Shown piece after piece: positions 16,477 to 17,040 of a stretch of DNA of 64,000 bases. The stretch comes from an uncultured Dehalococcoidia bacterium. Lineage in GTDB: Bacteria > Chloroflexota > Dehalococcoidia > Lucifugimonadales > UBA1127. Each line of letters begins with the position of its first letter. The stretch's first letter is position 1. The position numbers and the translations under genes were made by a program. The stretch covers positions 7,272-71,271 of the forward strand of contig CAZTCW010000032.1 in NCBI GenBank assembly GCA_964612825.1, given 5' to 3'. Below the pieces are notes generated by a model. The model searched no databases. It saw nothing but the letters and a program-made list of their open reading frames with translations, and was not told the origin of the DNA.

Positions 16477-17040
16477 TCAATAGATCCCCATAATTCTTCC
16501 CCACTCTTCTACCGTGCCGTTCCCATAACCCGCCCTATAGATAATCACTCCATCTGGATCAATTACAATCTTGGTTGATTGAATAGTTACATCAAAGGCA
16601 TCTAGCATCGAAAGATCGGTTCGACCCACTGGCCACGGGTAGCCCTGAGCATCAGCAAAAGCACGTAATCCCGTTAAATCTGAACCTGGAGCGATATCAA
16701 CCGGAAGAAAAGCAATTTTCCCTTCAAAGCTTGGCCATGCTTCTTTCATGAGCTGTAACTCAGCCCGACAGGTTCCTCAATAAGGGCTGAAAAAAAAGAG
16801 AAGGGTTGGCATCTTTTCATTTCGCAAGGTCGCATATGAAACTGTTTCCCCATTTGTTAATAAAACGCTGAAATCAGGGGCTTGATCCCCAATCAAATTT
16901 CCGATTTTGGCATCAGAAGTCTCTTGAATTTTCGAATTGATAGGAACGAGGTCAGTTTCACCTCCTCCATTAAGACACGATATTTGCGAAAGGATTAAAG
17001 AAACAGAAACTGTCAAAAGGAAAATTCGTTTCAAACCCAT
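16477..17040 (-). CDS. Thioredoxin-fold redoxin (TlpA/ResA/AhpC-TSA-like) with in-frame UGA at the CxxC first Cys: candidate selenoprotein (alternatively a pseudogene)
   Basis: ORFs 16777..17040 and 16477..16749 are in the same frame and separated by TGA (16777..16779). Read-through gives ..PTLLFFFSPY-U-GTCRAELQLMKEAWPSF.. There is an N-terminal signal peptide. A small hairpin lies at 16750..16766, 10 nt after the UGA. Confidence 0.55.

What the first reader, a model, noticed from the sequence alone, without database searches (positions are those of the whole stretch)
16477..17040. In-frame UGA at the first Cys position of a thioredoxin-fold CxxC motif: candidate selenocysteine redoxin (U-G-T-C)
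Two minus-strand ORFs that the track reports separately (16777..17040 and 16477..16749) are in one frame. They are interrupted only by TGA at 16777..16779. Reading through gives ...EKMPTLLFFFSPY-[UGA]-GTCRAELQLMKEAWPSFEGKIAFLPVDI... This is the beta-strand/aromatic/CxxC/helix layout of TlpA/ResA/AhpC-TSA-type redoxins, with the stop exactly where the nucleophilic Cys sits. A random nonsense mutation is unlikely to land on that codon, whereas Sec/Cys exchange at this position is the classic pattern in bacterial selenoproteins. A 6-bp hairpin GGGCUG-AGUUA-CAGCUC (16750..16766) starts 10 nt after the UGA and has GU in its loop. This is roughly where a bacterial SECIS would be, although the stem is short. 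TGA is an ordinary stop elsewhere in the window (for example metH at 5925..5927), so global recoding is excluded. The protein has an N-terminal signal peptide, so it would be an exported or periplasmic-side selenoprotein. It sits in a same-strand run with a TPR protein, a large lipoprotein and an MFS transporter.
Basis: partly seen in the sequence, partly recalled or inferred. Interest (0 to 1): 0.75.

Follow-up and report, generated by a model that had tools for sequence, protein, structure and literature searches.

The report
Selenocysteine redoxin lipoprotein of marine Dehalococcoidia
The "stop" codon inside this small exported redox protein is almost certainly read as selenocysteine; it belongs to an already known class of marine selenoproteins, and public databases record the gene only as two "hypothetical protein" fragments.

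Summary
One minus-strand frame, 17040..16477, is interrupted only by TGA at 16779..16777, in the context FFFSPY-U-GTC-RAEL. A 6-bp hairpin with loop AGUUA (16766..16750) starts 10 nt after the TGA.

The same TGA is present in 13 independent metagenome assemblies. It is also present in 98 of 103 scorable gene copies from Dehalococcoidia/SAR202 species genomes; the other 5 have Cys there. The frame stays open for a median of 105 conserved codons after the TGA. The hairpin occurs in every Sec form and shows strong covariation: 4 of 6 pairs have compensatory changes and 97% of cells are paired. Loop codons are frozen (Glu GAG 95/95, Leu UUR 97/97). The hairpin meets all four published bacterial SECIS criteria, and the Cys forms lack it.

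The protein is a TlpA/ResA-like thioredoxin-fold oxidoreductase with a signal peptide and a lipobox-like Cys. The Sec aligns with the nucleophilic Cys of ResA.

Not shown: selA, selB, selC and selD in this genome. None lies in the window and the genome could not be retrieved. Support for Sec decoding here is class-level literature plus a second UGA-split selenoprotein gene next to a homolog.

UxxC redoxin selenoproteins have been known in marine metagenomes since 2005. This is a new member of a known kind.

The parts
16477..17040 (-). Complete read-through coding sequence of the selenoprotein: 187 codons plus the stop TGA at 16479..16477; Sec is residue 88.
   Evidence: Searches give a single frame with one internal TGA. 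Pfam AhpC-TSA scores 44.5 bits (cut-off 26) and Redoxin 28.8 bits (cut-off 26.6) on the U->C sequence. Orthologs read through in the same way.
16777..16779 (-). Sec codon UGA (residue 88), the first position of the U-G-T-C redox motif.
   Evidence: TGA is at the same column in 98 of 103 scorable family copies and Cys is there in 5. It aligns with the N-terminal Cys of CxxC in ResA and 2LS5. It is present in 13 independent assemblies.
16768..16770 (-). Resolving Cys codon UGU (residue 91) of the UxxC motif.
   Evidence: Invariant in all 97 aligned family members. It aligns with the second Cys of the ResA CxxC.
16750..16766 (-). SECIS-like hairpin: 6-bp stem GGGCUG/CAGCUC and 5-nt loop AGUUA. 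There are 10 nt between the UGA and the stem and 16 nt between the UGA and the loop. It lies within codons R92-L97.
   Evidence: -8.1 kcal/mol, z = -3.75. On 87 sequences, 97.1% of cells are paired, 4 of 6 pairs have compensatory changes, and the covariation score is 0.482 against 0.188 for shuffles (0/500 reach it) and at most 0.114 for slid registers. RNAalifold predicts the same hairpin on its own. Loop codons are GAG 95/95 and UUR 97/97, against 55% and 24% elsewhere in the same genes.
16975..17040 (-). Signal peptide ending in a lipobox-like Cys22 (LILSQIS-C), which predicts an exported, membrane-tethered lipoprotein.
   Evidence: Read directly from the sequence. In 55 of 103 family copies a regular expression found a signal peptide ending in a lipobox (e.g. 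LLVG-C, ALA-C-G); a UPVC subgroup has an N-terminal hydrophobic stretch read as a TM anchor instead. No dedicated signal-peptide predictor was run.
16480..16893 (-). Thioredoxin-fold (TlpA/ResA-like) catalytic domain, residues ~50-187. It includes the ResA-like Glu94 and the family signature Q154-S-T-K157 (16570..16581).
   Evidence: PDB sequence hits 2LS5 (1e-10) and ResA (3e-8), aligned over residues 50-167. An AlphaFold model of the 47%-identical Cys homolog P0005 (most of the domain at pLDDT >= 90) matches ResA with TM 0.86-0.88 normalised to the target.
17086..18567 (-). Upstream same-strand gene for a 493-aa lipoprotein of unknown function (lipobox VFYG-C; C-terminal FCPPGCPP). Its stop is 45 nt before the redoxin start, so it is a possible operon partner (inferred, not shown).
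   Evidence: No terminator-like site was found between the two genes. The pair recurs in all close metagenome contigs, but it is not conserved across the wider family.

Best explanation
The two 'ORFs' are one gene for a 187-residue exported lipoprotein with a TlpA/ResA-like thioredoxin fold. Its active site is U88-G-T-C91.

Inferred decoding mechanism: during translation, the 17-nt hairpin that starts 10 nt after the UGA (loop AGUUA) acts as a bacterial SECIS. It recruits SelB-GTP-Sec-tRNA(Sec), so that UGA 16779..16777 is read as selenocysteine instead of terminating.

Inferred function: after Sec-pathway export and lipidation at Cys22, the domain sits on the outer face of the membrane. It works as a selenol/thiol oxidoreductase. 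Sec88 attacks a substrate disulfide or an oxidised sulfur species. Cys91 then resolves the intermediate as a selenenylsulfide, which an unidentified membrane electron donor re-reduces.

Shown here: the conserved UGA, the Cys/Sec exchange at that column, selection on the frame downstream of the UGA, the conserved and covarying hairpin, and the fold.

Inferred only: actual Sec insertion, export and lipidation, the direction of the redox reaction, the substrate and the reductant.
For: (a) UGA conservation. The first database search found only homologs whose called protein ends at ...FFFSPF. Their contigs read on as TGA-GTCRAEL... plus about 97 conserved residues. A profile search returned 231 hits. 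Of the best 120, about 112 are 81-108-aa C-terminal fragments that begin just after the UGA. Only 6 are full length, and all 6 have Cys at that position.

(b) Distribution. A family-specific DNA pattern run over 185,579 species genomes hit 82 stretches. All but one are titled Dehalococcoidia, Chloroflexota or SAR202; the exception is titled 'uncultured bacterium' and has no scorable gene copy. 98 gene copies have TGA at the site, 5 have Cys and 4 are cut off.

(c) Downstream frame. It is open for 83-163 codons after U (median 105) in 94 of 94 genes. Identity is 0.53 and 0.62 in two tested downstream segments against 0.48 in the 25 residues before U. No conserved start codon follows the UGA: L089 has Phe where the window's second ORF starts with Met, and gene callers start the fragments at different codons.

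(d) Hairpin. Covariation and frozen synonymous sites. All four bSECIS criteria quoted in PMC13188914 are met: loop 5 nt, stem 6 bp, G at loop position 2 followed by U, 16 nt from UGA to loop, and -8.1 kcal/mol. The Cys forms lack the hairpin. It is the only such TGA-plus-hairpin in the window.

(e) UGA is otherwise a stop in this window.

(f) Population data: 13 assemblies, only synonymous variants.

(g) Fold and active-site register.

(h) Sec use in the clade. Dehalococcoidia MAGs are among the ten most selenoprotein-rich bacteria in BSepDB, which lists only species that possess the Sec pathway (PMC13326102). Cultured Dehalogenimonas has selC, Sec-synthesis genes, a Sec-specific elongation factor and a Sec-containing SelD (PMC4918011). 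A homolog on a 6.2-Mb contig lies 2 kb from a GrdB-like gene split by TGA at TPT-U-PLC.
Against: No selA, selB, selD or tRNA-Sec was found in the 64-kb window. None was found in about 1.4 Mb of related loci held at the time. The Sec machinery in this organism is therefore inferred, not shown.

The stem is only 6 bp and the spacing sits at the lower limit of the bSECIS model.

There is no proteomic or 75Se evidence.

The cis-Pro typical of ResA-type active sites is replaced by an invariant Ser. No CcdA/DsbD-type reductant gene is linked to the family. The chemistry may therefore differ from that of ResA.
Confidence: 0.92

Rival explanations
1. Pseudogene: a nonsense mutation hit the active-site Cys codon and the gene is decaying.
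For: Gene callers and public records treat the halves as separate 'hypothetical proteins'.
Against: The same TGA is kept in 98 copies from tens of species at 40-60% protein identity. The downstream frame is intact and at least as conserved as the upstream one. Population variants are all synonymous. A covarying hairpin is maintained only in the TGA forms.
Confidence: 0.01
2. Sec-independent recoding: the UGA is read through by a near-cognate or suppressor tRNA (Trp, Cys or Gly), with the hairpin acting as a generic read-through stimulator. The protein would then carry an ordinary residue at position 88.
For: Sec machinery was not demonstrated in this genome. A hairpin just after a stop codon can in principle slow termination.
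Against: The position is the nucleophilic Cys of a CxxC, and the only alternative residue seen in homologs is Cys. That is the classic Sec/Cys pattern. The hairpin geometry and its loop (G at position 2, then U) match the SelB-dependent bSECIS model. The class is documented to decode Sec. A second canonical selenoprotein gene lies beside a homolog. UGA is a normal stop for 16 of 46 genes.
Confidence: 0.04
3. Two real small proteins: termination at the UGA gives an 87-residue lipoprotein, and the 90-aa ORF (16749..16477) is translated separately from its own ATG.
For: The window's second ORF begins with ATG nine codons after the UGA.
Against: Neither half is a viable thioredoxin fold on its own. 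The break falls between strand beta1 and the active-site helix. The Met is not conserved: L089 has Phe there, and the database fragments start at different positions. The nine codons between the UGA and that Met are conserved as protein (GTCRAEL) and contain the resolving Cys.
Confidence: 0.02
4. Sequencing or assembly error, or a genome-wide UGA reassignment.
For: None found.
Against: 13 independent assemblies share the TGA. TGA ends 16 of 46 Pfam-supported genes at their expected C-termini.
Confidence: 0.01

Closest known systems
UxxC 'Prx-like thiol:disulfide oxidoreductase', 'Thiol-disulfide isomerase-like (cd02966, TlpA-like)' and 'Redoxin family' selenoproteins predicted from marine metagenomes (Sargasso Sea 2005, PMC1088965; GOS 2008, PMC2398784; Table 1 of PMC13188914)
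   Same: Same Pfam domains (PF00578/PF08534). Same UxxC motif with Sec replacing the first Cys. Same marine origin, the same kind of in-frame UGA followed at once by a stem-loop, and Cys homologs exist.
   Different: This is a distinct sequence clade, found here almost only in genomes titled Dehalococcoidia, Chloroflexota or SAR202. It has a QSTKI...YRxGxGxG signature. That signature was not found in the held part of the GOS selenoprotein sequence files, which includes the Prx-like 1-3 headings; the file is cut at 400 of about 600 kb. Sec forms outnumber Cys forms about 20:1, the reverse of GOS 'Prx-like 1' (225 Sec against 2,740 Cys). No NCBIfam model reaches its cut-off.
ResA / TlpA / CcmG(DsbE) extracytoplasmic thiol-disulfide oxidoreductases (e.g. 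B. subtilis ResA, PDB 1ST9)
   Same: Thioredoxin fold with an N-terminal beta-hairpin and a central insert (TM 0.86-0.88). The redox motif sits at the start of helix 1. The acidic residue three positions after the second Cys is conserved (ResA Glu80 = Glu94 here). The protein is membrane-tethered and exported.
   Different: Sec replaces the nucleophilic Cys. The cis-Pro (ResA ...PLPTT...) is replaced by an invariant Ser (QSTK). It scores 39 bits against the 170-bit ResA cut-off. It is not linked to ccdA or cytochrome c maturation genes.
Pneumococcal surface lipoprotein thioredoxins Etrx1/Etrx2 (PDB 4HQS, 2YP6/4HQZ)
   Same: Lipoprotein-anchored, surface-exposed TlpA-like redoxins of a cell with no outer-membrane periplasm. 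They are structural matches (Foldseek E ~1e-9) and a plausible functional analogue for extracellular oxidative-damage repair.
   Different: They are Cys enzymes with known partners (CcdA, MsrAB2). No such partners are linked here, and the substrate is unknown.
E. coli fdhF-type bacterial SECIS (minimal element: a 17-nt upper stem-loop about 11 nt after the UGA; recalled from the literature, not re-read here) and the general bSECIS model (PMC13188914, Fig. 2)
   Same: A 17-nt hairpin 10 nt after the UGA, with a small apical loop that has G followed by U and no long lower stem required. All four model constraints are met.
   Different: The loop sequence AGUUR is nearly invariant across the family and there is no bulged U. 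Binding by SelB is inferred only.

Membership tests
Bacterial selenoprotein gene (Sec-UGA plus bSECIS) | In-frame UGA conserved at one column across orthologs, with a conserved open frame downstream | tested here: met
   98 copies have TGA at the same codon. 94 of 94 have an open frame of 83-163 codons after it, with identity 0.53-0.62. 13 assemblies of the same population carry it.
Bacterial selenoprotein gene (Sec-UGA plus bSECIS) | Homologs with Cys aligned to the UGA | tested here: met
   P0005-7, P0019/24/28; L110, L115, L146, L148 and L160.
Bacterial selenoprotein gene (Sec-UGA plus bSECIS) | bSECIS model: loop 3-9 nt, stem 4-16 bp, G in the first two loop positions, 16-37 nt from UGA to loop, MFE <= -7.5 kcal/mol (PMC13188914) | tested here: met
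   Loop AGUUA (5 nt), 6 bp, G at loop position 2 followed by U, 16 nt, -8.1 kcal/mol. The spacing is at the lower limit.
Bacterial selenoprotein gene (Sec-UGA plus bSECIS) | The RNA structure is under selection (covariation; constraint on synonymous sites; absent from Cys forms) | tested here: met
Bacterial selenoprotein gene (Sec-UGA plus bSECIS) | selA, selB, selC (tRNA-Sec) and selD present in the same genome | not testable with these tools
   None in the window or in the related loci held. Class-level support comes from the literature only, plus a neighbouring GrdB-like Sec gene in L182.
Bacterial selenoprotein gene (Sec-UGA plus bSECIS) | Selenium demonstrated in the protein | not testable with these tools
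   Needs 75Se labelling or mass spectrometry.
TlpA/ResA/DsbE-like extracytoplasmic thiol-disulfide oxidoreductases (cd02966; Pfam AhpC-TSA/Redoxin) | Pfam domain score above the gathering threshold | tested here: met
   AhpC-TSA 44.5 bits (cut-off 26); Redoxin 28.8 bits (cut-off 26.6).
TlpA/ResA/DsbE-like extracytoplasmic thiol-disulfide oxidoreductases (cd02966; Pfam AhpC-TSA/Redoxin) | Thioredoxin fold with the CxxC at the N-terminus of helix 1 | tested here: met
   The model is of the Cys homolog P0005, because the window's protein could not be submitted. CxxC is at residues 91-94 and the helix starts at 92. The top Foldseek hits are ResA, DsbE, DsbF and Etrx. Sequence alignments put U88 on ResA's first Cys.
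TlpA/ResA/DsbE-like extracytoplasmic thiol-disulfide oxidoreductases (cd02966; Pfam AhpC-TSA/Redoxin) | Export signal or membrane anchor | tested here: met
   By inspection and a regular expression only. The window's N-terminus has a hydrophobic core followed by IS-C22. A signal peptide ending in a lipobox was found in 55 of 103 family copies; a UPVC subgroup has a hydrophobic N-terminal stretch read as a TM anchor, and 12 copies were cut by the locus end.
TlpA/ResA/DsbE-like extracytoplasmic thiol-disulfide oxidoreductases (cd02966; Pfam AhpC-TSA/Redoxin) | cis-Pro loop facing the active site (typical of the superfamily, not a formal criterion) | tested here: not met
   The invariant Ser of QSTK aligns with the Pro of ResA PLPTT, B. 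anthracis PLPTS and 2M72 LIPAV.
ResA proper (NCBIfam NF002854) / DsbE (TIGR00385) | Score above the curated cut-off; linkage to cytochrome c maturation genes | tested here: not met
   39.3 bits against 170, and 22.3 against 123. No ccdA/ccm/res neighbours in the window or in about 80 family loci. It is therefore ResA-like in fold but not a ResA ortholog.
Peroxiredoxin (AhpC/TSA sensu stricto) | Peroxidatic Cys/Sec in a PxxxTxxC(U) motif | tested here: not met
   The motif is SPY-U-GT-C, a thioredoxin-type UxxC, with no Thr three residues before the Sec. The best structural matches are ResA-type rather than Prx.

The most novel reading that the evidence does not exclude
Marine Dehalococcoidia/SAR202 may carry a lineage-restricted, expanded family of surface-anchored selenolipoproteins. 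The evidence that leaves this open: up to four tandem paralogs with different UxxC motifs, Sec in about 95% of copies, an invariant Ser in place of the cis-Pro, and one almost invariant minimal SECIS (6-bp stem, AGUUR loop, 10-nt spacer). On this reading the family forms a selenium-based extracytoplasmic redox system with chemistry distinct from ResA/TlpA, for example peroxide or sulfenic-acid reduction, or repair at the cell surface. It would also make selenium a significant requirement for an abundant deep-ocean clade.
Probability: 0.3. Interest if true: 0.55.

Novelty: new member of a known kind. Interest (0 to 1): 0.4.

Why it matters
This is a well-supported example of a mis-annotated selenoprotein. 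Here and in public records the gene is split into two 'hypothetical proteins' (MSQ16637.1 and MBS58003.1 are such fragments). The thioredoxin-fold enzyme is therefore invisible to functional annotation.

The comparative set assembled here could seed a family model and improve selenoprotein calling in Dehalococcoidia/SAR202 MAGs. It consists of about 100 Sec forms, 5 Cys forms and a uniform, covarying 17-nt SECIS.

Biologically, it adds an exported, lipid-anchored Sec enzyme, often in tandem arrays, to a clade already noted as selenoprotein-rich. That bears on selenium demand and on defence against extracellular oxidative stress in the dark ocean. It does not change the understanding of Sec decoding.

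Tried and rejected
(1) Single-protein scan of species genomes. It gave only ~30%-identical Cys redoxins from unrelated phyla, because the exact-peptide patterns miss UGA forms.

(2) The search for related loci with broader alignments A3 and A4. I replaced them with my own degenerate DNA patterns.

(3) Search for Sec machinery.
- ARAGORN on the window and on 1.4 Mb of loci found no tRNA-Sec.
- tblastn with E. coli SelA, SelB and SelD against the loci held at the time found nothing.
Among the rows shown it returned mostly Acidimicrobiia and Pasteurellaceae. It also returned an Anaerolineaceae locus (L197) with selA beside the SelD-motif match, but no Dehalococcoidia.
- I ran no further search on SelA. 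A query from the class Anaerolineae was unlikely to bring the relevant Dehalococcoidia contigs into the top 120.

(4) Other in-frame TGAs in the window. None is convincing. The pair 14788..15168 / 15184..15525 is a DCC1-like gene preceded by a spurious ORF antisense to a GNAT gene.

(5) Conserved gene neighbourhood across about 80 family loci. There is only clade-level synteny (UvrD helicase, SDR, a likely G6PD gene) and no CcdA/DsbD.

(6) First structure prediction, from a 6-sequence alignment. Confidence was too low to use (pLDDT 51). A 124-row alignment gave pLDDT 79 overall, with most of the domain at 90 or above.

(7) Rfam at gathering thresholds has no family matching the hairpin.

(8) Family motifs were searched in the GOS supplementary sequence files and gave no hit, but Dataset S1 is stored truncated.
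Full report
**1. The observation**

Translating the minus strand from 17040 to 16477 gives one 187-codon frame. Its only internal stop is TGA at 16779..16777, in the context ...MPTLLFFFSPY-[TGA]-GTCRAELQLMKEAWPSF....

After 10 further nucleotides comes the hairpin GGGCUG-AGUUA-CAGCUC (16766..16750). On its own it folds at -8.1 kcal/mol with z = -3.75, and 0 of 200 shuffles fold as well.

TGA ends 16 of 46 Pfam-supported genes in the window, metH included. UGA is therefore an ordinary stop in this organism.

About 55 in-frame TGAs in the window have at least 40 open codons on both sides. Only this one is followed by a hairpin that meets SECIS-type rules.

**2. Not an error and not a private mutation**

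The flanking 493-aa gene and the 90-aa C-terminal ORF occur with identical protein sequences on many marine metagenome contigs, from Tara Oceans and other ENA, JGI and Logan assemblies. All 13 contigs that cover the site carry TGA. The only differences from the window are three synonymous substitutions.

**3. Homologs**

With U replaced by C, the protein matches Pfam AhpC-TSA (44.5 bits) and Redoxin (28.8 bits), both above threshold.

The first database search returned only four proteins, and all four are truncated at ...FLFFFSPF. The gene caller had stopped at the same codon. Their contigs read on as TGA-GGN-ACN-TGY (U-G-T-C) plus about 97 conserved residues.

A profile of five read-through sequences found 231 proteins. 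Among the best 120:
- about 112 are 81-108-aa fragments that cover only the part after the UGA;
- the six full-length proteins carry Cys at that column (FFFSPY**C**GTCR and YFFATW**C**PTCR).

Where public records name these fragments, they call them 'hypothetical protein'.

**4. Taxonomic range and the Sec/Cys census**

I ran a degenerate DNA pattern for the family's C-terminal signature (QSTKI[AV]x[DN]xxGxIxYR) over one genome from each of 185,579 species. It matched 82 stretches. All but one are titled Dehalococcoidia, Chloroflexota or SAR202 MAGs. The exception, L117, is titled 'uncultured bacterium' and has no scorable gene copy.

I then walked upstream in frame from each match:
- 98 gene copies have TGA at the first position of the redox motif (UPVC, UGVC, UGQC, UTVC, UGTC, UMTC and others);
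- 5 have Cys (CPSC, CPMC, CPGC);
- 4 are cut off by the end of the locus or show no motif.

Many genomes carry tandem arrays of two to four Sec paralogs.

In 94 of 94 scorable Sec genes the frame stays open for 83-163 codons after U (median 105). Pairwise identity is 0.53 in the 20 residues after U and 0.62 around QSTK, against 0.48 in the 25 residues before U.

No conserved start codon follows the UGA. L089 has Phe where the window's second ORF starts with Met, and gene callers start the fragments at different codons.

A pseudogene, or two separate genes, cannot produce this pattern.

**5. The RNA element**

The 87 distinct Sec-form sequences align without gaps from the UGA onward. The results for the proposed 6-bp stem are:
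- it is paired in 97.1% of cells;
- four of its six pairs show changes on both sides that keep the pair (CG 38 / GC 37; CG 67 / UA 15; GC 63 / UA 21; CG 66 / UA 16);
- the covariation score is 0.482, against 0.188 +/- 0.015 for shuffled partners (0 of 500 reach it) and at most 0.114 when the 3' arm is slid by 1-3 columns;
- RNAalifold predicts exactly this hairpin without being given it.

The loop lies in the codons for Glu-Leu. There Glu is GAG in 95 of 95 genes and Leu is UUA or UUG in 97 of 97. Elsewhere in the same genes GAG is 55% of Glu codons and UUR is 24% of Leu codons. These synonymous sites are therefore constrained at the RNA level.

The five Cys forms encode ...RELAEL... with other codons and have no equivalent hairpin.

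The published consensus model for bacterial SECIS elements has four requirements (PMC13188914). The window's element meets all four:

| Requirement | Window's element |
|---|---|
| apical loop of 3-9 nt | 5 nt |
| upper stem of 4-16 bp | 6 bp |
| G in the first two loop positions | A-G-U-U-A |
| 16-37 nt from UGA to loop | 16 nt |
| MFE <= -7.5 kcal/mol | -8.1 kcal/mol |

From memory, it is also close to the minimal E. coli fdhF element, a 17-nt hairpin about 11 nt after the UGA.

**6. The protein**

Sequence searches of the PDB align residues 50-167 to B. subtilis ResA (3e-8) and to a Bacteroides TlpA-like protein, 2LS5 (1e-10). U88 falls on the first (nucleophilic) Cys of CxxC, C91 on the second, and Glu94 on ResA Glu80.

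I could only submit a 47%-identical Cys homolog, P0005, for structure prediction. Its AlphaFold model has most of the domain at pLDDT 90 or above. It shows the TlpA-type thioredoxin fold, with the motif at the start of helix 1. Foldseek ranks ResA first (TM 0.86-0.88 normalised to the target). DsbE, M. tuberculosis DsbF and the pneumococcal surface lipoproteins Etrx1/2 follow.

Three things set the family apart from ResA proper:
- NCBIfam ResA and DsbE scores are far below their cut-offs.
- The family's most invariant residue, the Ser of QSTK, aligns with the cis-Pro of ResA-type proteins.
- There is no linkage to ccdA or cytochrome c maturation genes, either in the window or across about 80 family loci.

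The N-terminus is a signal peptide ending in a lipobox-like IS-C22. In 55 of 103 relatives a regular expression found a signal peptide ending in a lipobox such as LVG-C or LA-C-G. A UPVC subgroup has a hydrophobic N-terminal stretch instead, which I read as a TM anchor.

The protein is therefore best described as an exported, membrane-tethered, ResA-like selenol/thiol oxidoreductase. Its substrate and reductant are unknown.

**7. Context in the window**

The gene follows a 493-aa lipoprotein of unknown function by 45 nt on the same strand, with no terminator-like site between them. A TPR protein follows it. An MFS transporter, a tRNA-Ala and the trp operon lie further upstream.

The rest of the window is housekeeping: metH, metF, the ilv/leu genes, the pyr genes, purL, trpS and sucCD. 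It contains two T-box leaders and a TPP riboswitch. The homologs come almost entirely from Dehalococcoidia/SAR202 and the contigs that match the window are marine, so the window most likely comes from a marine member of that group. It contains no selenium-pathway gene.

**8. What remains inferred**

I could not show selA, selB, selC and selD in this organism. The details are:
- They are not in the window.
- They are not in the 1.4 Mb of related loci held at the time.
- The window's genome is not among the species genomes.

Indirect support is good:
- BSepDB includes only species that have the Sec pathway. It ranks two Dehalococcoidia MAGs among the ten most selenoprotein-rich bacteria, with 49 and 46 genes (PMC13326102).
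- Cultured Dehalogenimonas has selC, Sec-synthesis genes, a Sec-specific elongation factor and a Sec-containing SelD (PMC4918011).
- On a 6.2-Mb contig a family member lies 2 kb from a GrdB-like gene (PF07355) interrupted by TGA at LLTPT-U-PLC, the signature of another established selenoprotein family.

**9. Comparison with what is known, and novelty**

Thioredoxin-fold selenoproteins with UxxC have been catalogued from marine metagenomes since 2005. They include 'Prx-like thiol:disulfide oxidoreductase' (PF00578), 'thiol-disulfide isomerase-like' (cd02966, the TlpA-like family) and 'Redoxin family' (PF08534) (PMC1088965, PMC2398784 and Table 1 of PMC13188914).

The present gene belongs to that kind. 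These points appear specific to this clade:
- a near-exclusive restriction to Dehalococcoidia/SAR202;
- the strong predominance of Sec over Cys;
- the lipoprotein anchoring and the tandem arrays;
- the Ser in place of the cis-Pro;
- the nearly invariant AGUUR SECIS loop.

Its signature motifs were absent from the held part of the GOS selenoprotein sequence files. That file is stored truncated, so the absence is weak evidence. No NCBIfam model covers the family.

I rate it a new member of a known kind. The finding is solid and useful for annotation, but it would not surprise a selenoprotein specialist.

**10. Verdict**

- Observation: confirmed.
- Confidence that this is a genuine Sec-encoding gene with a functional SECIS: 0.92.
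- Interest: 0.4.

Noticed in passing
window 26159-26432 (-), 40278-40501 (-), 45890-46003 (-): Two T-box leaders, one before the trpEGDCFB run and one before the ilvBN-ilvC-leuA-leuCD-leuB run. A TPP riboswitch lies before a sodium:solute symporter gene (44363-45838), which may be a thiamine-precursor transporter.
   Followed up: partly
window 50718-51368 (+): A 216-aa PolB-exonuclease-like / RNase H-fold 3'-5' exonuclease ORF is wedged between carA (49588-50703) and carB (51373-54735). This is an odd insertion in a pyrimidine biosynthesis run.
   Followed up: no
window 17086-18567 (-): A 493-aa lipoprotein (lipobox VFYG-C) with no Pfam or NCBIfam family and a C-terminal FCPPGCPP motif. It always lies immediately upstream of the selenoprotein gene in close relatives. 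A functional link is possible but untested.
   Followed up: partly
window 14788-15168 (-): A DCC1-like thiol-disulfide oxidoreductase gene lies 1.3 kb downstream on the same strand, so there is a second thiol-redox gene in the neighbourhood. The in-frame ORF before it (15184-15525, separated by TGA) is antisense to a well-supported GNAT gene and looks spurious.
   Followed up: partly
window 7397-8899 (+) and 11304-11885 (-): A collagen-triple-helix-repeat protein (500 aa) and a YqaJ-like viral-type exonuclease gene. Both are unusual among the housekeeping genes around them.
   Followed up: no
window 18674-19957 (-) versus tRNA-Ala 19918-19993 (-): The longest ORF of the MFS transporter overlaps the tRNA-Ala gene by about 40 nt. 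The real start codon is probably further downstream.
   Followed up: no
L081 261-1124, L082 60-1007, L083 90-1034: The closest UGTC orthologs carry an extra N-terminal domain of about 120 residues that is rich in Cys (weak Pacifastin_I hit: ...CNNCFCSNGALGCTKMAC...). It is fused in front of the redoxin domain, between the lipobox and the catalytic domain.
   Followed up: partly
L127 1420-3900 (also L141, L107, L111, L112, L147 and others): Tandem arrays of two to four Sec-containing paralogs with different motifs (USQC, UGVC, UPVC, UPVC in L127), each with its own SECIS hairpin. The UPVC subgroup has a hydrophobic N-terminal stretch, read as a TM anchor, instead of a lipobox.
   Followed up: partly
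L182 2894-4090 (-), also L183 and L184: A GrdB/PrdB-like gene (PF07355) is split by TGA at ...LLTPT-U-PLCTH..., with a CACAC-CGUGA-GUGUG hairpin 14 nt downstream. It lies 2 kb from a family member on a 6.2-Mb contig and is called as two proteins (160 + 212 aa).
   Followed up: partly
family-wide; window residues 154-157 (16570-16581): The invariant Ser of the QSTK signature aligns with the cis-Pro of ResA-type thioredoxin folds. An invariant Gln, a Lys and a conserved Trp (YPW) accompany it. This hints at an active-site architecture different from classical TlpA/ResA.
   Followed up: partly
L197 3607-5170 (Anaerolineaceae MAG DATKKB010000123.1): A selA homolog (46% identity to E. coli SelA) lies directly beside a match to the GAG-U-GCK SelD motif. 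This looks like a Sec-pathway cluster in another Chloroflexota class.
   Followed up: no
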